A stretch of 27,726 bases of DNA from Nitrospira sp. (GCA_026994095.1 JALWRU010000103.1:1-27726), one strand, 5' to 3'; positions 3,452-27,726 are shown, numbered from the stretch's first letter. Notes: generated by a model not told the origin, from the sequence alone. Numbers and translations: made by a program.

Positions 3452-3488
3452 CGCCAGCACCCTTGTTCTATGGACCGAGCAGGACCCA

Positions 3489-5369
3489 TCAACTCACCTT
3501 TTGACGTTCGATCGCGCCGGTACGCAGGTAGACCCACAGCAGATGGGCGCACAACAGCGCACCACCCGCCAGACGGGCGACCGGCCAGCCGTCCTGGGGG
3601 ACACCCACCGACCACTCGGGAATGGTGCCCAGCAGCACCACCCACCAGCCCATGAAGGCAAACAACATCAGGTGCGCAGTGGCGCGGCCATAACGCTGCC
3701 GCTGCACCTCCTGAACGCCGGGAATCAAGCGCGCTGCAAGATGCCACGGAATCCGGCTGACAAAACGAAAACGATCCCGGGCGATGGCCACCTGTAGCGG
3801 AGAGACCTCGCTATGCCCCAAATGGTCGCCGCAGGACCGGCACAGGTGCAGATCCCCGACAAAGCTCATACATTTCTGGCATACCCCGGTATGGCAAAAA
3901 TCGCAGGGGATCACCCGTCGGGCCGCTTGCAAACGCGCAAGTACCACCGTTAACACCGTAAAGAGAAGCAACAGCACGGGCGCAAACAGGGGCGGGACGC
4001 CACCAAATAGCGCCTGCCACAACACCACTGCGGCCTGATTCCAGCCGCTGGAACTGGACAGTAAAATGGTGCGGGAGTCGATGTTGGTCAGCCCCATGGG
4101 TACCAATACCGCTTTGCCATCTTCATTGCCCACGCGAGAGACCCGCAAATAACCGTCTGCATCGATCTGTCTGGCCCGGTCGAAGCTGATGCGGGCACCA
4201 TCGAAATCGAGCATCCGGGACTGGGTCTGGCCCAGATTGTAGAGCGTCTCTACCGGCACCTTGTCGCCCTTGCTGATCTGCAAAAACAGCTGATAGGCCT
4301 CATTCACCTGGCCGGAACGAAAACGGGCAGTCGCTACATTGTGGGCGATGCGTATCGGGTCGCCCCCCAGATCCTGCGCCCTGGCATACCAGCCGATGGC
4401 CTGATCGTACTGGCCTGCGCGCAAAGCACCGTTGCCCAGTGCAAAGGCCACCTGCCAGCCACCTTGATGGCCCTCTTTGGGGAGTTTGCCTACCTGTGGA
4501 GTGAGCGCGCCCTGGCTCTCTTTCATGGCCAGATAGGCCAGCCCCTTGTTCGGTTCAGAGATCGCCAGCATGGGCGACACCATCCACGGGCCCAGCAGGA
4601 CTCCGACCAGCAGCACCACCTGCGCCTTGCGCAGCCGTTGACGGTCCCCCGCCCACGCCACCATGGCCCAGATCAAAACGACCCACCCAATCCCCCAGTC
4701 GGCGGCAAACGGTAGCGCCAGCAGGGCCAGCAGGGCCCCCCACGCCAACAGACCGGGAACCCGCAAGCCACCCGCCTCCTGCACCAAATGATGGCAGGAG
4801 ACCAAACTGGCTTTTAAACCGGGGATCAAAAACACCACCAGACAGGTGGCAGCAGCCAACCAGAATACGATGACCCCGTAGCTCATCCACACCAGCCCCA
4901 CCCACGGGTGGGAGACGCCGACTGCCGCCGCTTTTAACATCCATGCAATGGCCAGCGGAATACGATGCTGCTTCCAGTAGACCGATGACAGTGAGAGATA
5001 TCCCTCCGGCACGCCGGGGGCCACCAGTATCGCGGCCTGAGCAAAGACCTCGGCCTGGCGGTATTCATTTGCCAAAGAGGCCTCGCGGGCCCAGCGCGAC
5101 AGGGCCAGTGCGGGGGCTTCGAGATTGTGTAAACCTTGTGCGTCTCGAGCCACGATCAACGTGCGTATCGCTGGCCCCAGTTCTACATCGACCTTGCCGT
5201 TGAGTGCCACCTGACGGGCAGCCTCCCAGGCCGAGGGAAGGTCGGGTCTGTTGGGTACCGGCTCGGCGCTATGACCTGTGGGCACAACGCTCAGTAATAA
5301 CCCTGCCATCAGCAACCCGATCGACAGCCACAAACGGGCGCGACGATATGAAGGGTCAAGGCGCGCCAT
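3489..5369 (-). CDS. Multi-pass membrane protein with TPR repeats and a six-Cys zinc-finger-like cluster
   Basis: Signal-like N-terminus. TPR-like helices (A..LAPGVPEGYLSLS; ALGNGALRAGQYDQAIGWYARA; LYNLGQTQSRMLDFDGARISFDRARQID), about 7 hydrophobic segments, and CDFC-x4-CQKC-x9-CRSC. Starts 2 nt after the plsY stop. Confidence 0.75.
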   Translation of the reverse strand: MARLDPSYRRARLWLSIGLLMAGLLLSVVPTGHSAEPVPNRPDLPSAWEAARQVALNGKVDVELGPAIRTLIVARDAQGLHNLEAPALALSRWAREASLANEYRQAEVFAQAAILVAPGVPEGYLSLSSVYWKQHRIPLAIAWMLKAAAVGVSHPWVGLVWMSYGVIVFWLAAATCLVVFLIPGLKASLVSCHHLVQEAGGLRVPGLLAWGALLALLALPFAADWGIGWVVLIWAMVAWAGDRQRLRKAQVVLLVGVLLGPWMVSPMLAISEPNKGLAYLAMKESQGALTPQVGKLPKEGHQGGWQVAFALGNGALRAGQYDQAIGWYARAQDLGGDPIRIAHNVATARFRSGQVNEAYQLFLQISKGDKVPVETLYNLGQTQSRMLDFDGARISFDRARQIDADGYLRVSRVGNEDGKAVLVPMGLTNIDSRTILLSSSSGWNQAAVVLWQALFGGVPPLFAPVLLLLFTVLTVVLARLQAARRVIPCDFCHTGVCQKCMSFVGDLHLCRSCGDHLGHSEVSPLQVAIARDRFRFVSRIPWHLAARLIPGVQEVQRQRYGRATAHLMLFAFMGWWVVLLGTIPEWSVGVPQDGWPVARLAGGALLCAHLLWVYLRTGAIERQKVS

Positions 5370-14028: not shown

Positions 14029-14901
14029 CTAGGGCAGTAGTAATAACTCAGCAGATGGAGCCGACTCACAACCGGCTCCGGATACCGCCACAATGCGGTA
14101 GGCCACAGTGCTGGTCTGACCGACTACGCTCCGGTCAATAAAACGCGGTTCCGTGAGTGCTGCTGATGTGATCCGCGTCACCGTGCGTGCTGCCGGATCG
14201 GTAGGCGAATCGATACGCTCTACGTGGTAGCCCATCACCCCACTGGCCAGCGGGGTCCAGACCAGAATGACACCGCGCCGTCCCTGACTGGGAGAGAGGG
14301 GCGGGTCAGGGGCCAGAGGGATGGCCCCGCTGGAGAGGGCAGAGCCAATCGTTAGTTCAGCGGTGTAGATCCCCGGCACTGCAGAGGGCGGCATCACGAT
14401 TTGTTGCTCGGTAGCAAGATTATGGCTGACACCGTTGGCATCCACCAATGTCATGCTGCGCACCGCACACACCCCGCCAGTATTGACCGGCGGTTTCCAG
14501 GACAAGGTCACCGGCGTATCGGAGGTGAGCCCTCCGGTGATGGTGTTGTAGGGGGTATGAACCTCCAGCGACCACACCTCTGGTGTACTGCCGGAACGGA
14601 TATCGTGTTTGTAATAACGCCCGGCTTCCGGCTCAGACGGGTGCACAAACCAGGCCTGCACCGGCCCCATGCGGAACGCCAACGCATCATAACCGCCATC
14701 AAAACCGGTGCTCGCTGCAGCGTCAATCCCGGCGATGAGTCCGGTGCCCGCCGACGCTCCATCAAATGGCCCGGTCACGGTGAACTGCACTGACATTGCG
14801 GGCGTCTGGCCATAGGCCCCTGTCACCAACAGTACCGGCAACAACAGGGGTAATAACAGGGCGCCTGCCACCCGGCGACACATGGTGAAAAGGAGGGTCA
14901 T
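14029..14901 (-). CDS. Secreted 290-aa protein with a C-terminal FN3-like domain; partner of the giant protein
   Basis: ATGA overlap with the giant gene's stop and GGAGGT 9 nt upstream. Signal peptide (RR, hydrophobic core, AYG|Q). C-terminal FN3 pattern VILVW...GYHVER...FIDRSV...YRIVAV..AGCESAPS. Confidence 0.8.
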   Translation of the reverse strand: MTLLFTMCRRVAGALLLPLLLPVLLVTGAYGQTPAMSVQFTVTGPFDGASAGTGLIAGIDAAASTGFDGGYDALAFRMGPVQAWFVHPSEPEAGRYYKHDIRSGSTPEVWSLEVHTPYNTITGGLTSDTPVTLSWKPPVNTGGVCAVRSMTLVDANGVSHNLATEQQIVMPPSAVPGIYTAELTIGSALSSGAIPLAPDPPLSPSQGRRGVILVWTPLASGVMGYHVERIDSPTDPAARTVTRITSAALTEPRFIDRSVVGQTSTVAYRIVAVSGAGCESAPSAELLLLP

Positions 14902-17900
14902 GGGTGAACCACCTCCACAAAGTAAGACAGCGCCCCGTTAGGTGTGCCACCAAGCTGAATGAAGTAGGCCCGGAAGGGCAGCAACATATCGCTGGCGGTC
15001 ACCGGCTGGATCTGTAACACGCCGTTCACTACGGTAGAGAATCCCAACTCCGGATTGATCACCCCGTCGGTTACTGCGGTCGTAAACGGCTGGTTGTATT
15101 GCACCACATTGGCCCCATCCACACCCACAATACGCAGGCTGCTGACAGCCACTGGCTGGGCATAGGGATTCCCTATCAGACCGGCGTTCTGGTTGGGGAT
15201 GGCCACCCGCGTAAAGCTGGGCTGGTCCAGACCTTCAACATCCAGCACCGATTGGCGACCGATCGCCTGGACGAAGATCCCCTCACCCGGAACAAACCGA
15301 TCCGGCGTAGCGTCGGTAAAGTCGATGGGAACAAAATCACCACCCGTGGCCGCATTCACCGTCGGGTCCCAACGATAGGCGGTGACCACCGGTGTCTCTC
15401 CGTTGGCACACGCCGGTACCGGGCCCACGCCGGTGGTCGGCGCGTTGGCAGGCACACAACTACCGACCAGTGGCGACAACAGTGGCAGAATGTCCGGGGT
15501 CACCAGCGCACCAGGTGGCGAAATGGGGTTGAGCCCGCGGCGCAGCGCCGTATGAATGATCACCGTATTGGAAAGGGTCGAGGCAAATCCAGAACGAGAG
15601 TAGCCGATCACAGTGACATACAACCGGGCATTCTCCGGCAGATCTGTCAGCGTGAACGTCTGCACCAGATTGGTGACGCCGGGCAACAATGGTAGCTGCA
15701 CCGAGTGAATATCGGCTGCCGTTGCCACGGCCATTGGTACGGTGGACCAACGAATCTCATAGCGCTCAACGCGCCCTTCCGGTGATAAGGGTGAAGTCCA
15801 CCGAAGACCCACGGCATCGTTTCGTACGGTCCCGGCAATCACCGACAAGTCGGACACCGCACTGGGCTGCGTGGGGTTTATGCCCGGATCAGTCAAGGTC
15901 GTTCCAGAAGCCAGTGCCAACGGCGGAGCCAACTGGGTCAACACGCCGTTGTTGCTCTCGTAGCGAACCGGCACCACCGCCATGTAATAGAGCTGCCCTG
16001 GAGAAAGTCCCGTCACCGTGAACGATTGGCGCAGACCCGCCGCCACTGGTGCTGGCGGATGCAGGGCTGCCTGGGCGAGGGAGAAGCAGATCTGGCCTGC
16101 CAGCGCCGCACAATCGGCCACTGCGCTGTCGTCCACAATCGGGGTCGATGCCACACGGACTTCGTAACCGACCGGGTTGCCGGTGGGAACCGTCCAACTT
16201 AAGGTCAGGGCATTCTGTCCGCGACTGCTGACCACCAGATCGCCGATGGCCGATGGTACCGCGCTGGCGGTTCGTAGGCTGGGCACGTTGGAAATCGGCG
16301 CGTACTGCGTGCTGTCTTCATCTTCACCCTTCACGGCAAAGTAGTATGTCGTACCAGCATTCAGGCCAGTCACCAGGAAGCTGTTACTGACACCTCGGGT
16401 ATTGCCCGCTCCATCCACAGACGGAGTGAGTCGCTCGGTACGGGGCACCCGATCAAACGGAGTGAAGAAGTTGTTGTTACCACCCACCTCGGAGATATTA
16501 ATGGTGGAAATTCGCAGATCGTAAGACTGCACCGGGCCGTTAGCGGGCACCCCGGCGTCGTCAGCAACACCGGTCCAGCTCAACTGGATCATGGTCTCCG
16601 GGTTGGCTCCGGCCACGGCGGCAAGGTCGGTCACCGCCTCCGGTGGAACCGGATCGGCTGCCAGAGTCGTCACCGTCAGGACATTCGACAGCGCGGATAC
16701 ATTGACCCGCAACGACTCCTGCCCGTTCGCCAGTTTCAGGCTGGGACGATCACCGGTCTTCAACGCAACGGTATAGCTTCCTACCGCACCAAAATCGACC
16801 ACTACCTGCTGGACTGTTCCGGCAACCCCCGGCAACGGCGGGTTTGGCACCTGGTTGGCATCCGAGAAACGTATCTCCCCAGGCAGCACAGTCGCGTCGT
16901 CGTCCACGATGGTGAGGTGAGACCAACGGATATCGTAGCCTCCGGCCTGCCCGTCGGTTGCCCCATTGTCGCCGGGTGCTGCCCACTGGACTGTAGCACT
17001 GGCTGAGCCGACCCCAACCTGGCTCAACGATACTGCTGCAGGGGCTGCCGCGTCAGTACGGTAAGCCACCGTACCGGTTCTGCCAAAGTGGTTCACCAGG
17101 TCGGGCTTACCCGGCCGTGATGCCCGCAGTACATGATTGGTAGTGGCGTTAGTAAGCTCATCTGCTGTCGACCAGCCAAACCCGTTCCAGCGATACAGAT
17201 AGGTCGTCTGTATTTTAGGGGCAGAGTTATCGGTGATTCCGTCATCGACTACGACTACTGCCAGCATGTCGTTTGACTCTGGATCCTTGGAGATATCGAC
17301 TGATGTCTGGATCGGACCATGAATTGGCAGGTCCACACCCACCTGCCAGACACCTTGCGGCGCTGCAGATGCCTCCCAGGTCCGGTACTGAATATTGCCC
17401 CGGAATGTCTTAAACCTGCTGACAGCAAAACCGTACAGCGCAACCAGCTTGGTGGGTGATACCCATTCCAGATCAAAGTTTTGGGCCTCTTTTACCTGGC
17501 TGGACGGACCCAGCGCCAAACGCGGGGAAAGCACTGTACCGGAACTGGGAACCCAGCCACCATCCCAGAATGTTGCTACCAACGATCGGTTAAAGTTGGT
17601 CCGGTTAAAGAAAGCCCCGGCCACAGCAATACGGTTTCCAACCGGTGCTGCCCGTGCCGCCAGGAAGGTCGGACCCCGCCCTGGCTGGAGTACAAGACTG
17701 GAGGACGGCTGTACAAATGGCCCGGCCCATCCGTTGACCGGATCCCAAGTGGCTGCCTGCAAATTATCCGGCGTATCGGTACCCCAAAAGGCCACCGCGC
17801 GACCACTCTGGGACTCCCACGCCCCATCGAAGCTGGCCTTGACGAATTCAACCGGGTCCGAGTTCGATGGGCCCTGTGCCGCGTTGTTAGTCAACAAACT

Positions 17901-20900
17901 GCCCGGACCATTCACATCAAACTGGCTGATAAACGCGCCGCTGGTGCCCGCAGCACCATCCCAGATGATGGCCTGAACCTCCATGTTGTGGGTGACATAC
18001 ATCACCAGAATGCGCTGGCTGCCCTTTTGCGGTATCAGTCGCACCCACAGGGGGCGACCGTTGGCATTGGGAGATACCCCACCGATTGATACCACACCAC
18101 CCACATCTGCCACACCCTGCTTCAAACGGACAAAGCTCAGGCCAGGACCGCTGCCATAGACTACCAGCCCGGCACCCGCGCCAGCCTGCTCGTAGGCGAT
18201 ATCAAACGGGTGACCATGCCACTCGGGTGTAGGGAAACCGACACTCGTCAACTCCGCCTGAGTAAAAACAGCGTTCCAGTCGGTCGAGCCGGGTAGCCGG
18301 CGGTAGACCCGCAGGTGAGGCTGGAAATTTTGATCCTTGTAGCGGGCCACAGCCAGCATATACTCGCCTGGGTTGACCGGATTCGAATGAAGCTTGAGTT
18401 GATAATCGGTGGAAGCCGCAGCGTGCGGGAGTTGGGTGCCTGCCGGGTTGGATGCTAATGCCGGGCCGATCGGCCCAACCCCGGCCCAGTCACGCACCTC
18501 CAGTCCATTGGTACCGATCCCCGCAAGATAGGCAACCACTGCATCGCCGTGGCGCGCCGGGGGCTCGACAGGTACCAGAATCCGTCCGACACCTCCATCC
18601 TCGTTGACCAGTTTCAACTCCATGGTGCCACTGGCAGAGGCGGCGGCATCGTACACTATCCGAACCAGATTGCTGGCAATCCAGGCTGGCTGACTACCTG
18701 GTGCGGGATCAAAGTCCCGCAGGGTAATACCGGGGGTAAACACCTCGACTCTCACATCCCGGTCGATGTTGCCACCGTTAATCAGCATGGAAGTAGCAAC
18801 CGTATTACTGGTCACTACCGCCGGCTGGGTAGAGGACAGTACCGGCGACGCGCTGATGATTAGCGCATCTGCCAGGGTATCCTGACCAGCCGCCGACGTA
18901 ACGGTTACTGCAGCAGCGCCCGGTACGGTATCCGGTGGCATGGTCAACGAGAAGGTGACGAGGCCATCGTTCACAACACTCATATTGCTCACGGCCAGAC
19001 CCGCCCGATCAAAGGACACTGCCAAATTAGCAGCCGTAAACCCTTTGCCCAGTAACTGAATATTGTGGACGATTCGGGGCATCCAGCCGATCAGCCCCAG
19101 ACGGTTGACACTGTTTGGCACCAGGATGGCACCCACAGTCGGCCCAACACCGTTAGAGACCAGCAGGAAATTGCGCTGCTCGGCAACGGCTCCGTCGCCA
19201 TTGATGACACGAACCGTGCGCATGCCAGGCAGCGCGGTTCCCCCCACCGTTACAGAATAGGACACGGAGGTAGAGGTCGCGCTTACCCCGGAAGTTTGAA
19301 TCGTACTATCAATACTGCCATCGGCATTCAGGAAGATGACCTGCGGGGTGCCGCTGAAGCCCTGCCCCGACATGCTATCGCCAAGGGTGGCACCTACATT
19401 TACCGCCACCGCAGTACGGGCGTTAATGGTGAACCCGGATGTCACCTCCAGCATGTTGGACTGGCTCTTGCGGCCCCGATCCTTGTTGGCAATAGTGATC
19501 GCGTGACTACCGATCGATGCATCGGTCTCTACCAGTACGGTCGCAATCAACAGGTTGGGGGTCTGCGGTTGCACCGATAGCACCCGCACACCGGCGTCGC
19601 CCAGTCCCCGGTCACAGTCACCACCGATACAAACCCGCGGATTGATCGTGTCAAAGTTAAATCCGGAGATGCTCAGGTCCACCTGGGTGCCACGAATTAC
19701 CGAGCTCGGCGTCACCTGTGAGATGACCGGCGCAGGTGTCACAGTAAACGGATGGCTGGAATTGGTACCGTCCGGGTTCTGGACAGTAATCGTACCCACT
19801 CCAACGTCGGTACCGCTCACCACCCGAATCTGCATTTGACCAGACGTCACTGTCGTACCACCCACATCGATGGAACGGAAGTTAGCCAACTTGGACAAAC
19901 TGCTCGGGGTGCTGCTATCCAACGGGTTATTAGAGGAGCTCAGCCGCTCTACCCCCTCGGCGCTAAACGAAATGTCGTGCAACGACAGATCGGACGACAT
20001 GCCCTGCCCACCCAGCAGGAGTGTAACCCCGGTCGAACGACCGGATACCACAGTACCTCCACCCACACCCACCACCGATGGGGTGACTGACTGAAGGATC
20101 AGTTTCGGACCCACACCAAAGCCGTTGAGCAGCACACCAGACGGTCGGGTACTACGGTTGGTCACGGTCAGATCCCGCGGGCCCACAACGGCATCATTAT
20201 CGGCCCGTGCAGTAATCTGAATCTGGGTGGAATCAACCACCGTAGTACTCAGTACAGTAACCCCGGCACCCAAATCGACCACCGCATCAGAGATGAAGTT
20301 TTTACCAGTGATGGTATAGCTTCCGGTAAGCCCCGGCTTCAGCCCCGAAGTTGGCGACCGCGAAATCACCACCGGCTGAGGATTACCGACCCACGGGGTA
20401 AACAGATCTTCACCGCCATCGGCGTTGGTCACCCGCAAAGTAGTAGACGTTGTTGCAATATCGGTCGGTACGGTCACGGTAGCGGTCAATACCCCGTTGT
20501 TTACCGAGGTCACCCCGACCTGTATCTGCTGGTCGTCCAATGAGATCACCGCACCCGGCTGCAGGTTGCTACCGGTAACGGTAATAACAAACGTCTCCTG
20601 ACCCCGATCGGGTACCACCGTGGCGATGACCGGCGCCGGGTTAATGCGGATACCGCCAACGACAGTGCTGCTACCGGCTGCACCAGTAACGGTCACATCC
20701 ACCAGGCCGCTGGTCACGACGGTGGTATCAAACAGCACATCCAGATGCTGCTCTGCCGCCGGGTTCGGCTCGCAGCCAACAAACTGCTGAGCAGGGGGAT
20801 CGGTGGCTACCCCCGGACAACCGCCCGGCGCAAACCGCATGGAGACCCCCGGGCTGGTACTTACTCCGGTGACATTAAACGCCCCCGGAACTCCAAAATC

Positions 20901-23900
20901 GTACCCCAATACTTGCGCACGAATGGCGCTCAGGCCTGGCCCTGCCTCTGGCAACTGAATTCGGGAGACTGCCGGAATGGCCCCACCGGGGCTCGTTACC
21001 GTAAACCCGTTAGCAAGGGTAAAACTGCCGCCATTGGGCTGTTGCAGGCGGACGTCATAACCGCCCAGCGGTGCATTAGCTGCCGCCGTAACAGTCAATT
21101 TTAGTACCGTGTCAGACGATGTGCCGGTATTGATCGTCGCAGTCACCGGTTGCACCACGCCGCCACGCAAAAACTCAACGGTAGCGCCTGTTACTTCGAG
21201 GAAGCTGGCATTCAGGTCAACCGGCACCACCGCACCTTGCACCATCCGGTTAGGTACCATCCCACGAGCCACCGGCACCGGAGCCACCGGGAACCGGTCA
21301 AACACGATACCGCCGCTGAGGTCCGCATGGCGCAACATCACCGTGTATCGACCCACCGAAGCGGCGCTGTCTGCCGATATCGGTACTGTCAGCCCCGGTG
21401 TGGTGACCGTTCCACCGGTGAGCAGTGGGGACTGGAACAGGATGGTATCGCCCGCCACCACGTTGGCCCCCGTTAACGTAACCGGGAAGTTGGAACTGCC
21501 CTGAATAACACCGTCAGGGACATAGTTGTTCAGACCGGTCAACGGCTGCACAAAGGTGGTACCCGCAGCACCTGCATAGGACGGAATCAAGGTAAAGGGG
21601 CTGGTCCCACCGGGAGCGGTCACCGAGCCAGTAAAGCTGCTGGTACCACTGTAATAAAGCGCAATTCGACCACCGCCACCACCACTGCCAGCCGCATCTT
21701 CATTTGGCGGCGAGGCTAGCCAATTGGAGGCATTCCCCCCTCTGGCCCGAATCGTACCCGAACCGGAAAGGTTACCGACCCCCGGCCCGCCGTTCTGACC
21801 GACCAGCAGGAGGATGCTGCCACCGGCACCACCACCGGCACCCTTGATGTTTGTAGGGTTCCCCGGTGCGATGTCACCTACGCCATCAGTGGCGGAGAAC
21901 GCACCGTTGGTGCCGTCTGCCAGAATGCTTCCATCAATGGTGGCGTTACCCTGGACCTCCAGCACCACCGCACCGCCGCCATCACCACCCTCGTGCCAGT
22001 ATCGACCCGTCTCGTAACCGGCACCACCGCCACTGCCCGGCCGCAGGGGAATACCAGCAAAACAGGTAACCGGTGGGCAGTCGTCACTTAACACATCGTA
22101 GGTATGGCCGCCCTTGCCAGGGAAAAATGCGTCACCGCCTGCACCACCATTACCGCCACCGGTACCGGAGTTTTTACGACGTTCATCACTGACGAACTTA
22201 TCACTATTACTGCCCGCGCCAGGGCCCTGAGCCAAATTAACCTTACCGTTCACACCCGGTTGCAATTTGGCACCAATAAAACCGTTGCCGGACGCATCAA
22301 TCACACCCGCTGCACCAACGATCAGATCCCCCCCGACCCGCAAGCGTACATAGCTGCTGTTCGAGTCGATGACCAAGGTACCGTTGGTGACCTCTACGTT
22401 GTTGATCACGTTGACGACGATGTCACCCTGCAGGGTCAATACCGCACCACCATTCAGGGTGATATGGTCCAGCGACAGGGGCAAGGACCCATCAATGGTT
22501 TGACTACCGCCCACCAGATCAATGCCCAACGGTGCTCCCAGCGGTAACGTAAAGCTCGGCGAACTCTGGCCGTTGGGGTTGGTAATCATCAGATCGACTC
22601 CGGTGGCCGGAGCAAACGTATCCAGGGTGATGTTGATGGCCTGCGCACCCAACACAGTCTGGTTGATCAACTTACCGGAGGCGCTGACTACCGATACCAC
22701 CGCCTCAGGATCAAAGCCGGTACCCGTAATGGATACCGATTGGCTCAACTCTCCGCTGGTCAACTGGCCGGGGTTGAGCCCGGTAATCAAGGGGACCGGC
22801 TCAATCGTCAACAGGGCCCGCGCCTGCCCACCGGTGTCCCGAACCAGTGTCAATACTCGCGGCACGGAGAAATCCGCATCGGTGGCGACCGTCAAATCAA
22901 AGACAACAGAGGTCGCCGTGGCATTTCGTACGTTGGATGCACTTACGCCGGAACCGGATACCAGCACTTGCGACGCATTCAATATGGAACCCAGCCGGGA
23001 CCCACTGACGGTCACGGTGGTGACTTGTCCTTGAGGAACACCCGCCGGGCTGAGACTAAAGATACTCAGCCCATCAGTGACCGACAGTAAACTGGTTGTG
23101 GATATAAATGTGCCGCCGTCTGGATTGGTGACCCTGACCTGCCGCCCGCCGAGCGTGGCAAACGGTAACAAATCGACAGTGACAGCCGCTTCCAGCGGGC
23201 TCACCGGCAGGACGTCACGGACGATAATATCGCCCGCGGGAACAAATTCGAAGACAGCCCCCTCCTGCAGGTTTTGCCCACGTACGGTCAACAGTACTCC
23301 GTGAGCGCCCTGGCCAAGTTGCGGAGCGACCACCGCACCCAACGACACGCTATCCACACGGGTGCTGCTGCGGATCTCCAACTCACCGACAGCCGTACCA
23401 AAACTGCTGTCAGGATTGGTTACTGTAACGTCGATCAATCCCGGAGTGGCATTACCTGCCAAACTGACCAATCCGGTCAGAATGCCCTCATTGGCAGGCG
23501 GACCTGAAAACGAAAACACCGGGGGGGTAATATAATCAATCCCGCTGGCGGCAAAACTTACCGAGGCGCCAGACACAATGCCACGCCCACGCGCCTCCAG
23601 CGCCACCGACGACACATCTTGCAATACACAGCCACTCGCCGCGCCCACCGGCGTACAGGAGCCCACCCCGGTAGCGGACATCCGAATGCCATTGGGCCGT
23701 TCCAGTACCTGCAATCCGCCGGTAAGCAACTGGGGAGCGCCACCCGGATTGGTGAGTTCCAGCGTATAGGAGCCCGGTGCCACATCGCCAATATCGACGT
23801 TAATACGGATCAGCCGGGACGACAGGAAACGGACATCATTGACGGTCACTCCATCCGGAACAAACGTGACTGTCGGCACATTTAAAAAGCCGGCACCTGA

Positions 23901-26900
23901 AATATCAATGGTGCGGTTTACCGCAGTGGCGCCAATCGCCGCTGGAGAGGTGCCGTTACTGGCGGTTGCCGTAACCGTCGGTGCAGAAGGGGGCAGGGAG
24001 AACCGATAAGCAATGTCCGCAGCTTCGGTATTTACCGGTAGCGTCACCCCTTCGTTCCGACCGATTTGCCACGCTATGCCATTCCAGGAATAAACACGCA
24101 GGACACCGTCATCCCCCGGATTGCTGGCGTTTTCATCAACCACAGCGGCCAGCAAATCACCACCACCGGCATCGGCAGTCAATGACACCCAGCGGACCTC
24201 TTCACGATCAGACGGACCATCCAACGACACCACACCACCCCACCCGGTGGCTTCTGTCCACCGTCGAGATCGCGGTGCCGCATTGGGCGGCCCCGGTACA
24301 GTAGCGGGCGGAATAATTGGTGGTGACGCCTTCTGGATACCGTAGACCACCGTCGCTTCGTCAAAGGTGCCAGACCACACCACGTCGAACGGGCGCTGGT
24401 CTCCGGCATAGGAAAGGTGGTCGATATCACTCAACAGCGGGGTGCTCAGTTGGGCGAAGGTTTGGCCCCAGCGGACTCCCCCCCAGATCTGCCCGAACAG
24501 CCCACCACTGGTTGTGCTGTTCACTAACGCAACCAGATTTCGACCGGAGGCAGCGGCCAGGCGTAGCCAGATGATTTCATCTGAGGACGAAGACGAAGCG
24601 GTTAACGCACCCTCCAAGGTCCACGAGGCACCATCCCAATGACCCACACCGGGGATGACATCACCAGCAACCGCCCATGCGACCATGGCTTTCTGGCTAC
24701 CCGAAGCCCCCCAATAGACGGCGTCAAAACCCATCGTGGCTGTAGATACCAGCCCATTGGCACCAATCAGTAGTTGTTCGCTAGCAGCATCAAAACCGCT
24801 GGCGGAGACTGCAGTGCCAGCATGCCAGACAACCGCACACAACGCCCGGTTATCGTTGAGGTAGACAACCAGCGCTTCAGTGCCTGTCGCATTGGCAACG
24901 GTGCGTACCCAGCGCACATCGTGAACACCACCGCATTCAGGGTTGGTGCGAGGAATTGCACCAGAGGTCACCACATTGCCGGGGGCCGCCGGTCCACCAA
25001 TCACTTGATAGGACAGCCCACCATTCGTGCCGTAGGCAACCAGATATCGCTCTGCCAGCACCCCGGACACGGATGCCACATCAACCACACGCTTGCTACC
25101 GACAGCGTTCACTACCGAAATCGGTGCAGAAGGGGCTTGCCAGACAGGGTTTTGCCCGGCGTCCAATAAGCGCTCTTGCAGGTAGAGCGTGCCACCGGCC
25201 AGACTGGCTAACAGCAGTTCTCCGGTTGCTCGCCCGGACTGGGAGACTACCCAGTCCGGCTTGTGCGGAATGAGAGACGCACTGGCATTGCCCCAGCCAA
25301 ACCCATTCCATCGACGGGTAAGCGGTGTCGAGGCACCGGCCTGCGCATAGATCAAATCGGCCTGGGTAATCCCTGCCGGGGGCGCCTCCAGCCGCAAGGA
25401 TAGTGGTGCCGAAACCCCGCCGTCGCCGTTGTCTACAGTCAGGTTACGCAGGTCAAAAGTAGGATCTGGATTTTGTTCTATCAGATTGGCGTCAATCGAT
25501 ACCGATATCACCGCCGTCAACTGGGTAAAGCTGTCGAACTGGACCGACTGAACGGTCGCGCCCGTGCCCGATATATTGACCTGTGCACCGCTGATAAACC
25601 CGCTGCCGGTCAATACCACTGGCAACAATTCACCCACCACCATGGACGGGGGTGTGATTTGAGACAGGATGGGATTGGAGAGAATCGTCAGCGAACGGCT
25701 GTTTAACGATCGGCCCTGATTGCCATTCTGTACCGACACCGCGATCACCTCGGCAACGGCCTGCTCCGACACCTTAACCGGTACAGTAATCCGCGTTCCA
25801 ATACTGTTGACTACGGCCGGACCAGTTGCAGAAATCGAGGCCGGGGTGAAACTCAGTTGGGCGGCACTGTCAAAGTTGGTCCCGACCACTGACAGGGTCA
25901 GGCTTGCGCCTCGATCCACCTGCGTGATTGCCACCCCACCCGATTCCAGACCGGTCATCACCGGGGCCGGAGCCACCGTAAACACCGGAGTCGCTGCAGA
26001 AATCGAGGTGTCCGGGTTGCGGACCTGGGCTGACCGAGGGTTATCAATCGGCAGCGCACTGGCAGTCGGGTCGACAGACAACACAAAAGTAACCAGTGTG
26101 GGGGATGCCACAGCCACCGATGAAATGGTCAGGCCATTGGCCGGAAAACCCTCCGTAGCACCACCAAAGGTCAGGGCAGATCCGACCACAAACCCGGAGC
26201 CCGTCAACGACATGGCCACACCAGTCGCCCCTTGGCCAAGCACGCTGGGGCTCAAGGAAGTTACTACCGGCGGCGGCAGGGCGGGTGCGACGATACAGGT
26301 GCCGGCAGCACCGTCGGTAGAGAGATTATGAGAGGGGGTTCCCCGGAGGCCGCCCACGCACGATACATTGCTGGTCTGACTCAAGGCCGAACTGCCCACG
26401 GGTCCGTTCTGGCCGGTGTAATAGATGGCGATACGGCCACCACCACCACCGCCACCGTTAGCACCGGGGCTGCCTCCCGGGGTACACGCTGAACCGGTAT
26501 AGCCGGGGCCACCCCTGCCGCCTACCGAGCGCACCACCACTGTCCCGACACCGGCGTTGGTCAACAGGTCGCCAGTTCGTAACAGAATAGAACCACCACT
26601 GCCACCACCACCGCTGGCGCGATTGTTGCCCCCCACGCCTGAGATCCCGGCAGCACCATCTACGGTAATCAAGCCATCCAGCGTGGTCGTACCGGCAATA
26701 ATAAGGCGAACCGCTGCACCACCATTACCACCGGCACCCAGCGTCAGCGGCATACCACTACCCGGCTTGCTGTCGCCACCCCGGCTACCGGGTAAGGAGG
26801 GGGCCGACACACTGCCGTACGCACTACCGCCAATGGTTTCGTTTGAAAAAGAGCGGCCAGCGTTACCACCGCCACCGCCACCGCCAGCACCACTACCCGG

Positions 26901-27317
26901 ACAACCAAACTGAAACGGCGTCGCCCCCGCGCCAATCCCCAGCACATTGGCGATGCCACTACCACCCACGCCATTGAGCTGGCCACCGGTGGCCACGGTA
27001 AAGTCGCCACCGACTGTAATCGTCAGCGCCTCGGTGGTACCTATAAGTTGCAGCGTAGCACCCGCCTCGATCACCAGATTGCCAGTCACTACCAAGGTGC
27101 CCGACCCGACCATCGTCGCCTGAACGCCCCCCGCCTGAATGGCAAGGTCGCCGTTGCAGGTCATCGCCTGCAACCCGATACCGCCGGGGTCCATTTCGCT
27201 GGCCACACCACCGCCCGCAGGAGTACACATTGCTGCCGCCTGCGCACCGGACGCGGTCAGGAACAGCACGGCCCCCACACTGAGCAAAATTGTGATTAGT
27301 CGACCCAGAAAAAGCAT
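14898..27317 (-). CDS. Giant (4139 aa) secreted multidomain surface/adhesin-like protein with Gly-rich, IPT/TIG-like Ig, beta-propeller-like and FN3 domains
   Basis: Uninterrupted 12420-nt ORF. An in-frame TAG two codons upstream fixes the start at 27317. The 27-aa signal peptide ends AQA|A. Repeat families are visible by eye (see the repeat features). Confidence 0.9.
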   Translation of the reverse strand: MLFLGRLITILLSVGAVLFLTASGAQAAAMCTPAGGGVASEMDPGGIGLQAMTCNGDLAIQAGGVQATMVGSGTLVVTGNLVIEAGATLQLIGTTEALTITVGGDFTVATGGQLNGVGGSGIANVLGIGAGATPFQFGCPGSGAGGGGGGGNAGRSFSNETIGGSAYGSVSAPSLPGSRGGDSKPGSGMPLTLGAGGNGGAAVRLIIAGTTTLDGLITVDGAAGISGVGGNNRASGGGGSGGSILLRTGDLLTNAGVGTVVVRSVGGRGGPGYTGSACTPGGSPGANGGGGGGGRIAIYYTGQNGPVGSSALSQTSNVSCVGGLRGTPSHNLSTDGAAGTCIVAPALPPPVVTSLSPSVLGQGATGVAMSLTGSGFVVGSALTFGGATEGFPANGLTISSVAVASPTLVTFVLSVDPTASALPIDNPRSAQVRNPDTSISAATPVFTVAPAPVMTGLESGGVAITQVDRGASLTLSVVGTNFDSAAQLSFTPASISATGPAVVNSIGTRITVPVKVSEQAVAEVIAVSVQNGNQGRSLNSRSLTILSNPILSQITPPSMVVGELLPVVLTGSGFISGAQVNISGTGATVQSVQFDSFTQLTAVISVSIDANLIEQNPDPTFDLRNLTVDNGDGGVSAPLSLRLEAPPAGITQADLIYAQAGASTPLTRRWNGFGWGNASASLIPHKPDWVVSQSGRATGELLLASLAGGTLYLQERLLDAGQNPVWQAPSAPISVVNAVGSKRVVDVASVSGVLAERYLVAYGTNGGLSYQVIGGPAAPGNVVTSGAIPRTNPECGGVHDVRWVRTVANATGTEALVVYLNDNRALCAVVWHAGTAVSASGFDAASEQLLIGANGLVSTATMGFDAVYWGASGSQKAMVAWAVAGDVIPGVGHWDGASWTLEGALTASSSSSDEIIWLRLAAASGRNLVALVNSTTSGGLFGQIWGGVRWGQTFAQLSTPLLSDIDHLSYAGDQRPFDVVWSGTFDEATVVYGIQKASPPIIPPATVPGPPNAAPRSRRWTEATGWGGVVSLDGPSDREEVRWVSLTADAGGGDLLAAVVDENASNPGDDGVLRVYSWNGIAWQIGRNEGVTLPVNTEAADIAYRFSLPPSAPTVTATASNGTSPAAIGATAVNRTIDISGAGFLNVPTVTFVPDGVTVNDVRFLSSRLIRINVDIGDVAPGSYTLELTNPGGAPQLLTGGLQVLERPNGIRMSATGVGSCTPVGAASGCVLQDVSSVALEARGRGIVSGASVSFAASGIDYITPPVFSFSGPPANEGILTGLVSLAGNATPGLIDVTVTNPDSSFGTAVGELEIRSSTRVDSVSLGAVVAPQLGQGAHGVLLTVRGQNLQEGAVFEFVPAGDIIVRDVLPVSPLEAAVTVDLLPFATLGGRQVRVTNPDGGTFISTTSLLSVTDGLSIFSLSPAGVPQGQVTTVTVSGSRLGSILNASQVLVSGSGVSASNVRNATATSVVFDLTVATDADFSVPRVLTLVRDTGGQARALLTIEPVPLITGLNPGQLTSGELSQSVSITGTGFDPEAVVSVVSASGKLINQTVLGAQAINITLDTFAPATGVDLMITNPNGQSSPSFTLPLGAPLGIDLVGGSQTIDGSLPLSLDHITLNGGAVLTLQGDIVVNVINNVEVTNGTLVIDSNSSYVRLRVGGDLIVGAAGVIDASGNGFIGAKLQPGVNGKVNLAQGPGAGSNSDKFVSDERRKNSGTGGGNGGAGGDAFFPGKGGHTYDVLSDDCPPVTCFAGIPLRPGSGGGAGYETGRYWHEGGDGGGAVVLEVQGNATIDGSILADGTNGAFSATDGVGDIAPGNPTNIKGAGGGAGGSILLLVGQNGGPGVGNLSGSGTIRARGGNASNWLASPPNEDAAGSGGGGGRIALYYSGTSSFTGSVTAPGGTSPFTLIPSYAGAAGTTFVQPLTGLNNYVPDGVIQGSSNFPVTLTGANVVAGDTILFQSPLLTGGTVTTPGLTVPISADSAASVGRYTVMLRHADLSGGIVFDRFPVAPVPVARGMVPNRMVQGAVVPVDLNASFLEVTGATVEFLRGGVVQPVTATINTGTSSDTVLKLTVTAAANAPLGGYDVRLQQPNGGSFTLANGFTVTSPGGAIPAVSRIQLPEAGPGLSAIRAQVLGYDFGVPGAFNVTGVSTSPGVSMRFAPGGCPGVATDPPAQQFVGCEPNPAAEQHLDVLFDTTVVTSGLVDVTVTGAAGSSTVVGGIRINPAPVIATVVPDRGQETFVITVTGSNLQPGAVISLDDQQIQVGVTSVNNGVLTATVTVPTDIATTSTTLRVTNADGGEDLFTPWVGNPQPVVISRSPTSGLKPGLTGSYTITGKNFISDAVVDLGAGVTVLSTTVVDSTQIQITARADNDAVVGPRDLTVTNRSTRPSGVLLNGFGVGPKLILQSVTPSVVGVGGGTVVSGRSTGVTLLLGGQGMSSDLSLHDISFSAEGVERLSSSNNPLDSSTPSSLSKLANFRSIDVGGTTVTSGQMQIRVVSGTDVGVGTITVQNPDGTNSSHPFTVTPAPVISQVTPSSVIRGTQVDLSISGFNFDTINPRVCIGGDCDRGLGDAGVRVLSVQPQTPNLLIATVLVETDASIGSHAITIANKDRGRKSQSNMLEVTSGFTINARTAVAVNVGATLGDSMSGQGFSGTPQVIFLNADGSIDSTIQTSGVSATSTSVSYSVTVGGTALPGMRTVRVINGDGAVAEQRNFLLVSNGVGPTVGAILVPNSVNRLGLIGWMPRIVHNIQLLGKGFTAANLAVSFDRAGLAVSNMSVVNDGLVTFSLTMPPDTVPGAAAVTVTSAAGQDTLADALIISASPVLSSTQPAVVTSNTVATSMLINGGNIDRDVRVEVFTPGITLRDFDPAPGSQPAWIASNLVRIVYDAAASASGTMELKLVNEDGGVGRILVPVEPPARHGDAVVAYLAGIGTNGLEVRDWAGVGPIGPALASNPAGTQLPHAAASTDYQLKLHSNPVNPGEYMLAVARYKDQNFQPHLRVYRRLPGSTDWNAVFTQAELTSVGFPTPEWHGHPFDIAYEQAGAGAGLVVYGSGPGLSFVRLKQGVADVGGVVSIGGVSPNANGRPLWVRLIPQKGSQRILVMYVTHNMEVQAIIWDGAAGTSGAFISQFDVNGPGSLLTNNAAQGPSNSDPVEFVKASFDGAWESQSGRAVAFWGTDTPDNLQAATWDPVNGWAGPFVQPSSSLVLQPGRGPTFLAARAAPVGNRIAVAGAFFNRTNFNRSLVATFWDGGWVPSSGTVLSPRLALGPSSQVKEAQNFDLEWVSPTKLVALYGFAVSRFKTFRGNIQYRTWEASAAPQGVWQVGVDLPIHGPIQTSVDISKDPESNDMLAVVVVDDGITDNSAPKIQTTYLYRWNGFGWSTADELTNATTNHVLRASRPGKPDLVNHFGRTGTVAYRTDAAAPAAVSLSQVGVGSASATVQWAAPGDNGATDGQAGGYDIRWSHLTIVDDDATVLPGEIRFSDANQVPNPPLPGVAGTVQQVVVDFGAVGSYTVALKTGDRPSLKLANGQESLRVNVSALSNVLTVTTLAADPVPPEAVTDLAAVAGANPETMIQLSWTGVADDAGVPANGPVQSYDLRISTINISEVGGNNNFFTPFDRVPRTERLTPSVDGAGNTRGVSNSFLVTGLNAGTTYYFAVKGEDEDSTQYAPISNVPSLRTASAVPSAIGDLVVSSRGQNALTLSWTVPTGNPVGYEVRVASTPIVDDSAVADCAALAGQICFSLAQAALHPPAPVAAGLRQSFTVTGLSPGQLYYMAVVPVRYESNNGVLTQLAPPLALASGTTLTDPGINPTQPSAVSDLSVIAGTVRNDAVGLRWTSPLSPEGRVERYEIRWSTVPMAVATAADIHSVQLPLLPGVTNLVQTFTLTDLPENARLYVTVIGYSRSGFASTLSNTVIIHTALRRGLNPISPPGALVTPDILPLLSPLVGSCVPANAPTTGVGPVPACANGETPVVTAYRWDPTVNAATGGDFVPIDFTDATPDRFVPGEGIFVQAIGRQSVLDVEGLDQPSFTRVAIPNQNAGLIGNPYAQPVAVSSLRIVGVDGANVVQYNQPFTTAVTDGVINPELGFSTVVNGVLQIQPVTASDMLLPFRAYFIQLGGTPNGALSYFVEVVHP
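15550..17050 (-). repeat. Four tandem FN3-like domains in the giant protein (protein-level repeat)
   Basis: P.AV.DL...L.W....Y(D/E)(I/L/V)R.S..P(I/M)...V.GL.....YY pattern, e.g. WAAPGDNG...GYDIRWS, LSWTG...SYDLRIS, LSWTVP...GYEVRVA, LRWTSP...RYEIRWS. Boundaries are approximate. Confidence 0.75.
17055..18550 (-). repeat. Trp-rich 8-repeat beta-propeller-like domain 2
   Basis: Eight repeats of about 55-75 aa with W-x-G-x-x-W-like cores (IIWDG, WDPVNGW, FWDGGW, WNGFGW). Aligns repeat by repeat with domain 1. Confidence 0.6.
18560..21545 (-). repeat. Ten tandem IPT/TIG-like Ig domains
   Basis: Units of about 85-125 aa beginning P.(V/I)..V.P, with an (I/V)TG.NF/GF motif and a V.N(P/A)DG turn (VTNADGG, VQNPDG, VINGDG, LVNEDGG). 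Confidence 0.7.
21545..22530 (-). repeat. Glycine-rich domain 2
   Basis: GGDGGGAVVLEVQGNATIDG, GAGGGAGGSILL, GSGGGGRIALYYSG and GAAGTTFV are collinear with Gly-rich domain 1. Confidence 0.7.
22530..23990 (-). repeat. Five tandem IPT/TIG-like Ig domains
   Basis: Same unit pattern (LTNPGG, VTNPDS, VTNPDGG, ITNPNG). Confidence 0.7.
23990..25370 (-). repeat. Trp-rich 8-repeat beta-propeller-like domain 1
   Basis: Eight repeats with cores WNGFGW, WDGASW, WGGVRW, WTEATGW and WNGIAW. Confidence 0.6.
25380..26280 (-). repeat. Three tandem IPT/TIG-like Ig domains
   Basis: PVVTSLSP...LTGSGF...VRNPDT; ...VVGTNF...VQNGNQG; PILSQITP...LTGSGF...VDNGDGG. Confidence 0.7.
26281..27236 (-). repeat. Glycine-rich domain 1
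   Basis: GAGGGGGGG, GGNGGAAVRLIIAGTTTLDG, GGGGSGGSILL, GGGGGGRIAIYYTG and GAAGTCIV. Confidence 0.7.
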
Positions 27318-27567: not shown

Positions 27568-27726
27568 TCACTGCCCGTTTACGACACATCGTACCCCAAA
27601 ATCCGGCTGATTCAGGGTGCTGATCACTGCGTATCGATTTGCGGCACGTAAATAGGCCAGTGAGGAGATCCATCCCCCTCCCTTGAGTACATGGAACTTT
27701 TCACCAAACGCCTGTCGCTTCAAAGT
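27568..27726 (-). CDS. 3' end of an FGE-sulfatase domain (SUMF1/EgtB/PvdO family) protein; partial and missing from the ORF track
   Basis: Manual translation from 27726 gives TLKRQAFGEKFHVLKGGGWISSLAYLRAANRYAVISTLNQPDFGVRCVVNGQ*. This matches the family C-terminal signature V.(R/K)GG.W....LR.A.R........GFRC. Confidence 0.8.
   Translation of the reverse strand, partial: TLKRQAFGEKFHVLKGGGWISSLAYLRAANRYAVISTLNQPDFGVRCVVNGQ

What the first reader, a model, noticed from the sequence alone, without database searches (positions are those of the whole stretch)
14898..27317. 4139-aa secreted protein built from a duplicated [Gly-rich]-[Ig]n-[propeller] super-module
Seen: signal peptide (aa 1-27), GR1 (~28-346), 3 Ig, WP1 (~650-1110), 5 Ig, GR2 (~1596-1925), 10 Ig, WP2 (~2923-3421), 4 FN3, CTD. 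GR1/GR2 and WP1/WP2 align motif by motif, so an ancient duplication placed two pairs of putative binding heads at different heights on an Ig stalk. I do not recognise this architecture among described giant adhesins (LapA/Bap, SiiE, RTX ice-binding adhesins, CdiA/FHA, invasins). Inference: a multivalent adhesin, biofilm scaffold or cell-contact appendage.
Basis: partly seen in the sequence, partly recalled or inferred. Interest (0 to 1): 0.8.

Follow-up and report, generated by a model that had tools for sequence, protein, structure and literature searches.

The report
Giant four-headed Nitrospirota surface fibre protein
This is a real, intact gene for a 4139-residue secreted fibre protein that one family of Nitrospirota bacteria keeps in unchanged form: two glycine-rich modules and two eight-bladed propellers spaced along a stalk of 22 small domains, with an end domain predicted to dock onto the protein of the next gene. 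It is probably an attachment fibre, and its parts are of known kinds.

Summary
Window 14898-27317 (-) is one 4139-aa ORF: signal peptide, GR1, 3 Ig, WP1, 5 Ig, GR2, 10 Ig, WP2, 4 FN3 and a C-terminal domain (CTD).

- **Paired heads are homologous.** hhalign gives GR1/GR2 at 99.5% and WP1/WP2 at 99.4%.
- **WP1 is an eight-bladed beta-propeller** (AlphaFold2 pLDDT 88).
- **GR belongs to a widespread domain family that Pfam does not cover.** Its only named relative is the AgmC N-terminal domain (NCBIfam NF047640). I did not model its fold.
- **The architecture is fixed.** Seven orthologues at 38-52% identity are collinear, and each of the 18 Ig positions is its own orthologous clade.
- **Distribution is narrow.** The gene was found in all 6 other sampled genomes of this Nitrospirota family, always with a 278-314-aa secreted partner gene overlapping its stop.
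- **The CTD is predicted to bind the partner** (ipSAE 0.84, best control 0.00). CTD-like domain plus partner gene also follows unrelated cargo proteins in other Nitrospirota families.

One duplication of a whole super-module is possible but not shown.

The scan found an orthologue fragment before on other DNA (e1-1479014), with the same reading.

Verdict: a new variant of the giant modular adhesin-like kind. The function is inferred, not shown.

The parts
27237..27317 (-). Sec signal peptide, aa 1-27 (cleavage read as AQA|AA)
   Evidence: Sequence: basic n-region, hydrophobic core, AxA site. No lipobox. Read by eye; no predictor was run.
26277..27236 (-). GR1, glycine-rich module, aa 28-347, with six invariant Cys
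   Evidence: Conserved in orthologues. Homologous to GR2. Member of the widespread GR family, which is related to NCBIfam NF047640 AgmC_N. Three rungs of about 30 aa with a GGGxGG-[AS]-I...G.I.A.GG.G pattern suggest a beta-solenoid; this is inference.
25389..26276 (-). Ig-like repeats 1-3, aa 348-643
   Evidence: Iterated HMM. NCBIfam NF058597 CoaZ_rpt_PGGG and Pfam TIG. Best-modelled region of the first AlphaFold2 model (10-residue block mean pLDDT mostly 70-87 within aa 450-640).
23988..25385 (-). WP1, eight-bladed Trp-rich beta-propeller, aa 645-1110
   Evidence: AlphaFold2 with a 33-row alignment: pLDDT 88.3, pTM 0.91. VIA-align Z 23.8-21 to eight-bladed propellers. AFDB clusters at TM 0.71-0.78 are uncharacterised proteins.
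22554..23987 (-). Ig-like repeats 4-8, aa 1111-1588
   Evidence: Iterated HMM. Each position is an orthologous clade.
21543..22550 (-). GR2, second glycine-rich module, aa 1590-1925
   Evidence: hhalign to GR1: 99.5%. Weak NF047640 hit, E 0.0017. GR2 forms a clade with 100% support.
18582..21542 (-). Ig-like repeats 9-18, aa 1926-2912 (repeats 11 and 14 carry insertions)
   Evidence: Iterated HMM. The best NF058597 and TIG stretch is aa 2313-2391.
17049..18575 (-). WP2, second Trp-rich propeller-type domain, aa 2915-3423
   Evidence: hhalign to WP1: 99.4%, 395 columns. HMM cross-hits. The fold is inferred from this homology and was not modelled.
15576..17048 (-). Four FN3 domains, aa 3424-3914
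   Evidence: Pfam PF00041 at 83.3 bits. Four units by iterated HMM. This is the most conserved stretch among orthologues.
14901..15560 (-). C-terminal docking domain (CTD), aa 3920-4139, ending ...YFVEVVHP
   Evidence: Conserved in 7 orthologues. No Pfam, NCBIfam or PDB relative. Predicted to bind the partner. CTD-like domains end other cargo proteins in other Nitrospirota families.
14029..14901 (-). Partner gene, 290 aa: signal peptide, N-terminal CTD-binding domain (aa about 43-122), middle domain, C-terminal FN3. Its ATG overlaps the giant gene's stop (ATGA).
   Evidence: for conservation. The overlap recurs in L001, L002, L007, L008 and a further contig. FN3 hit to titin FN3, E 7e-8. Complex score 0.84 against 0.00.

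Best explanation
The gene encodes a Sec-exported, disulfide-containing fibre that would be roughly 100 nm long if extended. It is made by one family of Nitrospirota.

A stalk of 18 IPT/TIG-type Ig domains and 4 FN3 domains holds four globular heads at fixed positions. Two are AgmC-N-like glycine-rich modules, probably beta-solenoids. Two are eight-bladed Trp-rich propellers.

The C-terminal domain docks onto the N-terminal domain of a small secreted protein. That protein is encoded by the overlapping next gene and is probably made by translational coupling. This two-gene docking cassette is also used by other cargo proteins in other Nitrospirota families.

The most likely job is multivalent attachment to a surface, a glycan matrix or another cell, with the propellers as lectin-like binding heads.

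Shown: the gene, the domain map, the homology of the paired heads, the propeller fold of WP1, the fixed architecture, the family-wide conservation, and the gene pairing.

Predicted: the contact between the CTD and the partner.

Inferred: the GR fold, location on the cell surface, which end is proximal, and any binding function.
For: - Intact ORF with a signal peptide. It has 20 Cys, mostly in close pairs, as expected for an extracytoplasmic protein.
- NCBIfam NF058597 at 144.5 bits in 11 stretches, and fn3 at 83 bits.
- WP1 model: pLDDT 88.3, eight-bladed. The PDB hits with the highest sequence identity among the strong VIA-align matches (12-13%) are the PLL, BP39L and CV39L propeller lectins at Z about 20-21. 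Fucose lectins AAL, AFL and RSL make up most of the top of the Foldseek list, at TM 0.35-0.40 by the query and 0.47-0.61 by the shorter lectin chains.
- GR and WP domains recur in many other giant secreted proteins.
- Seven orthologues at 38-52% identity have no gap of more than 26 aa. All 18 Ig positions are separate orthologous clades.
- The giant gene is present in 6 of 6 other genomes of the family.
- The partner gene overlaps the stop in every contig examined.
- Complex prediction gave ipSAE 0.84 against a best control of 0.00. In the tool's calibration, 58 of 80 solved complexes and 2 of 110 mismatched pairs reached the mark.
- A CTD-like domain followed by a partner-like gene sits behind non-orthologous proteins of 692-1745 aa in three other families.
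- The genome has at least 3 secretin genes, so a route across the outer membrane exists.
Against: - There are no expression, localisation or binding data.
- No outer-membrane export or anchoring signal was recognised on either protein. The partner has no lipobox, barrel or transmembrane tail.
- PDB matches of the propeller are generic: TM by the query is under 0.5 in Foldseek, and WD40, cd1 nitrite reductase and BamB score as high as the lectins.
- No sugar-binding residues were tested.
- The GR fold was not modelled here. The 4-row model was poor (pLDDT 25-40 in GR).
- The complex score is a model's confidence and was obtained with shallow alignments of my own.
Confidence: 0.55

Rival explanations
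1. It is a structural envelope component rather than a ligand-specific adhesin. It would act as a spacer, sheath, S-layer-like canopy or biofilm-matrix scaffold whose fixed length sets a distance, and the heads would mediate self-association.
For: - The domain number and order are strictly fixed across 7 genera, with no repeat turnover. Adhesins under diversifying selection would not be expected to stay so fixed; this expectation is from general knowledge.
- It is single-copy and present in every sampled genome of the family.
- It sits beside envelope housekeeping genes lepB, kdsA, kdsB, kdsC and kdsD.
Against: - No SLH or other S-layer family was hit at E up to 1 in Pfam or NCBIfam.
- Synteny within a single family may simply be inherited.
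- Propeller and solenoid heads on an Ig stalk are typical of binding proteins.
Confidence: 0.22
2. It is a tethered enzyme or carbohydrate-processing protein. The propellers would be sialidase- or glycosidase-like, or the glycine-rich solenoids would be polysaccharide lyase-like catalytic domains.
For: Foldseek and AFDB lists include sialidases and a GH74-type xyloglucanase. Beta-helices often carry polysaccharide-degrading sites; this is general knowledge.
Against: - These matches have TM under 0.5 and 9-13% identity.
- There is no BNR, glycoside hydrolase or lyase hit in Pfam or NCBIfam, even at E 5.
- The best structural matches are non-catalytic eight-bladed propellers.
Confidence: 0.07
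3. It belongs functionally to the upstream conserved block of multihaem cytochromes, NHL-repeat proteins and two FGE-sulfatase-like enzymes. It could, for example, be a scaffold for extracellular redox proteins or a substrate of the FGE-like enzymes.
For: The order cytochrome, FGE x2, giant, partner recurs in L001, L008 and this genome, and FGE x2, giant, partner recurs in L007. A conserved Cys in a CTPAG context lies at the mature N-terminus.
Against: - All these genomes belong to one family, so the synteny is weak evidence.
- A gap of about 250 nt separates FGE2 from the giant gene.
- The giant protein has no CxxCH motif.
- The FGE motif CxPxR lacks its Arg here.
Confidence: 0.08
4. It is an assembly artefact or a decaying pseudogene.
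For: The genome is a fragmented MAG of 542 contigs.
Against: The 12.4-kb frame is open. Seven collinear full-length orthologues come from independent assemblies. Open frames of 3786-4418 aa occur in six related genomes.
Confidence: 0.01

Closest known systems
N-terminal domain of Myxococcus adventurous-gliding protein AgmC (NCBIfam NF047640, gliding_AgmC_N)
   Same: It is the only named relative of the GR modules. Of 85 GR-family domains, 44 hit it (best E 2.8e-11), and GR2 of this protein hits it at E 0.0017. The match covers the Gly-rich second half of the model, positions about 216-406.
   Different: Scores of 17-35 bits are far below the 275-bit cut-off. Only part of the model is matched. 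The host protein, its architecture and the phylum all differ. I found no paper on AgmC function in the library.
PLL/PHL family of seven-bladed Trp-rich propeller lectins (Photorhabdus PLL, PDB 5c9o; BP39L, 6gxr; CV39L, 6gxs; papers PMC6943638, PMC5584973)
   Same: Both are beta-propellers with a recurring Trp motif in the blades. VIA-align gives Z 19.9-21.2, with the highest sequence identity (12-13%) among the strong PDB matches.
   Different: This domain has eight blades, not seven. It has no Pfam DUF346 or Beta-prop_PLL hit. It is embedded twice in a 4139-aa fibre rather than being a free lectin. Sugar binding was not tested.
Giant Ig-repeat adhesins of diderm bacteria (the LapA/SiiE/ice-binding RTX adhesins exported by T1SS; invasin and intimin; FHA-type TpsA)
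   Same: All share the general plan of a very long stalk of Ig-like domains carrying ligand-binding modules and held to the cell at one end.
   Different: This protein has a Sec signal peptide. It has no RTX repeats, TPS domain, autotransporter or intimin barrel, and no T9SS or PEP-CTERM tail. The end domain instead pairs with a separate secreted protein. The repeat number is fixed rather than variable.
NCBIfam NF058597 choice-of-anchor Z repeating domain (CoaZ_rpt_PGGG), an IPT/TIG-like Ig repeat
   Same: The stalk repeats are members: 144.5 bits against a 30-bit cut-off, in 11 stretches.
   Different: This is a domain-level family only. It says nothing about GR, WP, the CTD or function.
Uncharacterised AFDB propeller clusters (A0A3A0CF34 'ASPIC/UnbV domain-containing', A0A7C4DZ33 'DUF2341 domain-containing', A0A3M2DDQ6, A0A842QTD4)
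   Same: They match nearly the whole of the WP1 model: TM 0.71-0.78, E 1e-19 to 8e-22.
   Different: Identity is 15-20%. All are predicted models with no studied function, and they sit in different host architectures.

Membership tests
NCBIfam NF058597 CoaZ_rpt_PGGG / Pfam PF01833 TIG (Ig-like stalk repeats) | Score above the curated cut-off of the domain model | tested here: met
   NF058597: 144.5 bits against 30, in 11 stretches. TIG: 28.8 bits against 20.9.
Pfam PF00041 fn3 | Score above the gathering threshold | tested here: met
   83.3 bits against 25. Four units were delimited.
AgmC (NCBIfam NF047640, equivalog domain) | Score at or above the 275-bit cut-off over the 412-position model | tested here: not met
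   GR2 scores 17.4 bits, E 0.0017, over model positions 216-403 only. GR1 has no hit. The relation is a distant domain homology, not membership.
PLL/PHL propeller lectins | Seven blades | tested here: not met
   The top VIA-align matches are eight-bladed propellers: a designed 8-blade Bagel, cd1 nitrite reductase, NirF, BamB and Ika8.
PLL/PHL propeller lectins | Match to Pfam DUF346 (PF03984) or Beta-prop_PLL (PF26607) | tested here: not met
   No such hit for WP1 or WP2 at E up to 5, nor for the whole protein at E up to 1.
PLL/PHL propeller lectins | Fucose or other sugar sites between blades | not testable with these tools
   No ligand modelling or model coordinates were available.
T1SS RTX giant adhesins (LapA, SiiE, MpIBP) | C-terminal RTX nonapeptide repeats and secretion signal, with no Sec signal peptide | tested here: not met
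   No HemolysinCabind or RTX family at E up to 1. A Sec-type signal peptide is present.
Type V secretion (autotransporters, TpsA/FHA, intimin/invasin) | Beta-barrel translocator domain, or an N-terminal TPS domain with a neighbouring TpsB | tested here: not met
   No such Pfam or NCBIfam hit in the protein or in its neighbours.
Sorting-tail families (T9SS CTD, PEP-CTERM, LPXTG) | Recognised C-terminal sorting domain | tested here: not met
   The CTD (aa 3920-4139) has no Pfam or NCBIfam hit at E up to 5 and has no hydrophobic tail.
Split CTD-partner docking cassette (provisional, defined here) | A CTD-like domain at the cargo C-terminus immediately followed by a partner-like gene | tested here: met
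   Met in 6 orthologous loci and in 5 non-orthologous loci from 3 other Nitrospirota families.
Split CTD-partner docking cassette (provisional, defined here) | Physical binding of the CTD to the partner | tested here: inconclusive
   Prediction only: ipSAE 0.84 against a best control of 0.00. In calibration, 58 of 80 solved complexes and 2 of 110 mismatched pairs reached the mark.

The most novel reading that the evidence does not exclude
The CTD plus the overlapping partner gene is an undescribed, general two-gene docking system by which Nitrospirota mount different cargo proteins on their surface. This giant would be its largest client: a fixed-geometry 'ruler' that presents four heads, two of each of two kinds, at set heights, rather than a variable adhesin.
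Probability: 0.3. Interest if true: 0.6.

Novelty: new variant of a known kind. Interest (0 to 1): 0.45.

Why it matters
Nitrospirota of this kind are uncultured groundwater and sediment bacteria, and almost nothing is known about their surfaces. This protein takes up 12.4 kb of a genome of about 2.5 Mb and is kept, domain for domain, across at least seven genera, so it is probably important to them.

It gives three testable handles:
- Two domain families with no Pfam entry and no solved relative by sequence: the AgmC-like glycine-rich module and the eight-bladed Trp propeller.
- A predicted split docking module that could explain how a Sec substrate with no known sorting signal is held at the cell.
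- An unusual case of a repeat-rich giant protein with no repeat turnover.

None of this overturns current ideas. The parts and the general plan are of familiar kinds, and the function remains inferred.

Tried and rejected
- **First structure job.** AlphaFold2 of aa 1-1125 with a 4-row alignment gave pLDDT 51.5. Only the Ig domains were usable, and GR and WP were unreliable. I drew nothing about GR from it.
- **Combined alignment.** I tried one deep alignment (A7) so that GR1 and WP1 could be modelled in a single job. MAFFT placed the WP fragments on the GR region, so I dropped it. The last structure job went to WP1 alone, and GR stayed unmodelled.
- **ESM Atlas feature searches** for WP1, GR1 and the CTD returned only unnamed clusters.
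- **PDB profile searches.** GR gave only a Gly-linker artefact (2l6h). WP and the CTD gave nothing, and the partner gave only its FN3 domain.
- **Search for stand-alone WP proteins** of 260-820 aa found none.
- **Paralogues in the own genome.** No other GR or WP copy was found.
- **Literature.** I found nothing on AgmC. The 'choice-of-anchor' hits were unrelated.
- **Ig tree.** It could not link stalk block 1 to block 3, so it neither supports nor refutes a super-module duplication.
- **Polyglycine-II bundle for GR** (note e1-5284697). I consider it less likely than a solenoid, because the Gly runs alternate with hydrophobic strand-like stretches at a period of about 30 residues (consensus). 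This was not tested structurally.
- **Fused CTD-partner proteins** (claimed in e1-1479014). I saw none in the loci examined and did not search further.

Full report
**1. The gene is real and the domain map is right.**

The minus strand of window 14898-27317 holds one open frame of 4139 codons. It starts with a typical Sec signal peptide (MLFLGR, a hydrophobic core, AQA|AA). This is read from the sequence.

Pfam finds FN3 (83 bits) and weak TIG. NCBIfam finds the curated Ig-like repeat NF058597, 'choice-of-anchor Z repeating domain', at 144.5 bits in 11 stretches.

An HMM iterated on the protein itself delimits 18 Ig-like repeats in blocks of 3, 5 and 10 and four FN3 domains.

The protein has 20 cysteines, mostly in close pairs. 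That fits an extracytoplasmic, disulfide-bonded protein.

**2. The paired heads are homologous.**

Using alignments of four orthologues for each domain, profile-profile comparison gave these results:

| Pair | Probability | E-value | Collinear columns |
|---|---|---|---|
| GR1 vs GR2 | 99.5% | 7e-23 | 260 |
| WP1 vs WP2 | 99.4% | 1e-21 | 395 |

Plain BLASTP already hinted at both. Local HMMER cross-hits between the profiles agree, for example WP1 model to WP2 at 6e-13 and GR1 model to GR2 at 3e-16. Those E-values are for a small local set.

Glycine richness could inflate the GR score. However, the alignment is collinear and includes the hydrophobic strand-like stretches.

**3. What the heads are.**

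*WP.* With a 33-row alignment of WP domains, AlphaFold2 gave a confident model of WP1 (pLDDT 88.3, pTM 0.91).
- VIA-align places it with eight-bladed propellers. The top matches are a designed 8-blade 'Bagel' (Z 23.8), cytochrome cd1 nitrite reductase (Z 22.0), NirF, NirN, BamB and Ika8.
- The Trp-rich PLL, BP39L and CV39L lectins score Z about 20-21 and have the highest sequence identity (12-13%) among the strong matches.
- In the Foldseek PDB search, fucose lectins (AAL, AFL, RSL) make up most of the top of the list. TM by the query is only 0.35-0.40; by the shorter lectin chains it is 0.47-0.61.
- The only close structural relatives (TM 0.71-0.78) are uncharacterised AFDB clusters.

So WP is an eight-bladed propeller of an undescribed family. 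A lectin-like role is a reasonable inference, not a result. WP2 was not modelled.

*GR.* I could not obtain a good GR model. The first job, with only 4 rows, gave pLDDT 25-40 there. The second and last job went to WP1.

By sequence, GR is one member of a very large family:
- 202 further copies occur in 38 of the 150 best representative hits, 2-11 tandem copies per protein.
- 165 smaller proteins carry it across many phyla, and every one that carries a source name is called 'hypothetical' or 'uncharacterized' apart from one annotated as a prepilin-type protein; only a few have a precomputed Pfam domain.
- Of 85 family members, 44 hit NCBIfam NF047640, the N-terminal domain of the Myxococcus gliding protein AgmC (best E 2.8e-11). 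No Pfam family matches more than one of them, and those two single hits are weak (E 0.002 and 0.004).

The family consensus shows three consecutive units of about 30 residues with the pattern GGGxGG-[AS]-I ... L.G.G.I.A.GG.G. I read these as beta-solenoid rungs. Earlier follow-ups in this scan reached the same AgmC link and predicted a beta-helix for the family (e1-2871612, e1-2552780, e1-1374012). I did not test the fold here.

**4. Distribution and conservation.**

Full-length relatives exist only as unnamed orthologues. Related contigs are labelled Nitrospirae, Nitrospirales or Nitrospiria.

In a sample of 300 genomes of the phylum, a full CTD match inside an open frame of 3786-4418 aa was found in all 6 other genomes of the window's own family. 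Each belongs to a different genus. No genome of another family had a full match. The own genome has no second GR or WP copy.

Seven full-length orthologues share only 38-52% identity, yet they align with no gap longer than 26 residues. In a tree of all 126 Ig domains, each of the 18 positions forms its own clade, which is the minimum possible 17 changes.

So there has been no gain, loss or homogenisation of repeats since the family's ancestor. From general knowledge, that is unlike many repeat-rich adhesins.

**5. Was a super-module duplicated?**

- *GR.* A tree with GR1 and GR2 held together is slightly better than the free quick search (lnL +9.6, p-AU 0.73). GR1 and GR2 may therefore be each other's closest relatives.
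- *WP.* WP1 and WP2 fall in an unresolved polytomy with propellers of three other Nitrospiria giants. An exclusive clade is neither recovered nor rejected (p-AU 0.37).
- *Ig.* The tree gives no correspondence between stalk block 1 and block 3.

A single old duplication of [GR-Ig-WP] is therefore possible but not shown. Separate duplications, or shuffling among giant proteins, would fit equally well.

**6. The C-terminal end and the next gene.**

The last 220 residues form a conserved domain with no Pfam, NCBIfam or PDB relative.

The next gene (14029-14901) overlaps the stop by ATGA. It encodes a 290-aa protein with its own signal peptide and a C-terminal FN3. The same overlap and partner are present in every related contig examined.

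Complex prediction supports a contact between the CTD and residues about 43-122 of the partner. The score was 0.84 against a best control of 0.00. In the tool's calibration, 58 of 80 solved complexes and 2 of 110 mismatched pairs reached the mark. Those counts hold only roughly here, because I used my own alignments.

Independently, the same pairing occurs in three other Nitrospirota families. There, unrelated proteins of 692-1745 aa that end in a CTD-like domain are also followed directly by a partner-like gene. This makes the pair a reusable docking cassette.

How the partner itself is held to the cell is unknown. It has no lipobox, barrel or membrane tail. The genome has at least three secretin genes, so a secretin-based route out of the periplasm is available but unproven.

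**7. Surroundings.**

Downstream lie lepA, lepB, kdsB, pyrG, kdsA, kdsD, kdsC, a CDP-alcohol phosphatidyltransferase and plsY.

Upstream, on contig C390, which overlaps the window's end by 127 bases, lie two FGE-sulfatase-like genes and a multihaem cytochrome. The same order is seen in L001 and L008; L007 shows the two FGE genes, the giant gene and the partner.

All these genomes belong to one family, so this synteny is weak evidence of a functional link.

**8. Verdict.**

The interpretation as a multivalent attachment fibre is plausible but unproven.

No defining feature of the described giant-adhesin secretion families is present, whether RTX/T1SS, type V, T9SS or PEP-CTERM. The parts are nevertheless familiar kinds: Ig/FN3 stalk, propeller, and a glycine-rich module that is probably a solenoid.

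I rate it a new variant of a known kind. The fixed four-head geometry and the split docking cassette are its interesting points.

The scan had already met an orthologue-like fragment in another Nitrospirota genome and read it the same way (e1-1479014).

Noticed in passing
L006 (own genome contig C390) 2-751, 758-1687 and 1579-3462, all minus strand; window 27570-27726: Two FGE-sulfatase-like genes and a multihaem cytochrome lie directly upstream of the giant gene, as in L001, L007 and L008. The mature giant protein begins near a conserved Cys in a CTPAG context. This resembles the FGE target CxPxR but lacks the Arg.
   Followed up: partly
window 27600-27726 and G000:C390:1-127: The window is a whole contig (C103). 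Its last 127 bases are identical to the start of contig C390, so the two contigs probably join there.
   Followed up: partly
P0030 (6719 aa) and P0085 (7926 aa), metagenome proteins: These giants carry about ten or more WP-type propeller domains in tandem. P0105 and P0152 are similar proteins labelled Nitrospiria, and P0152 also has LamG domains.
   Followed up: partly
P0232 (365 aa), labelled Ciona intestinalis uncharacterized protein LOC144746995: A GR-family domain hit (E 4e-34) appears in an animal genome record. It could be gene transfer or contamination.
   Followed up: no
P0243 (495 aa): A GR-family domain sits on a protein with a prepilin-type N-terminal methylation domain and FN3. In some bacteria the module may therefore be carried on type IV pilus-like fibres.
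   Followed up: no
window 2321-3460 (-) and 3489-5369 (-): A DUF4388 protein and a 626-aa TPR protein lie at the far end of the housekeeping block. The TPR gene is also present in L001.
   Followed up: no
WP1 aa 743-746, 862-869 and 975-981; WP2 aa 3036-3043, 3161-3167 and 3279-3286: A recurring [RK]xxFDxA[YW] motif occurs three times in each propeller, apart from the WxGxxW motifs. Its Asp and Phe are nearly invariant across the WP family alignment A8. It could mark binding sites on alternate blades.
   Followed up: no
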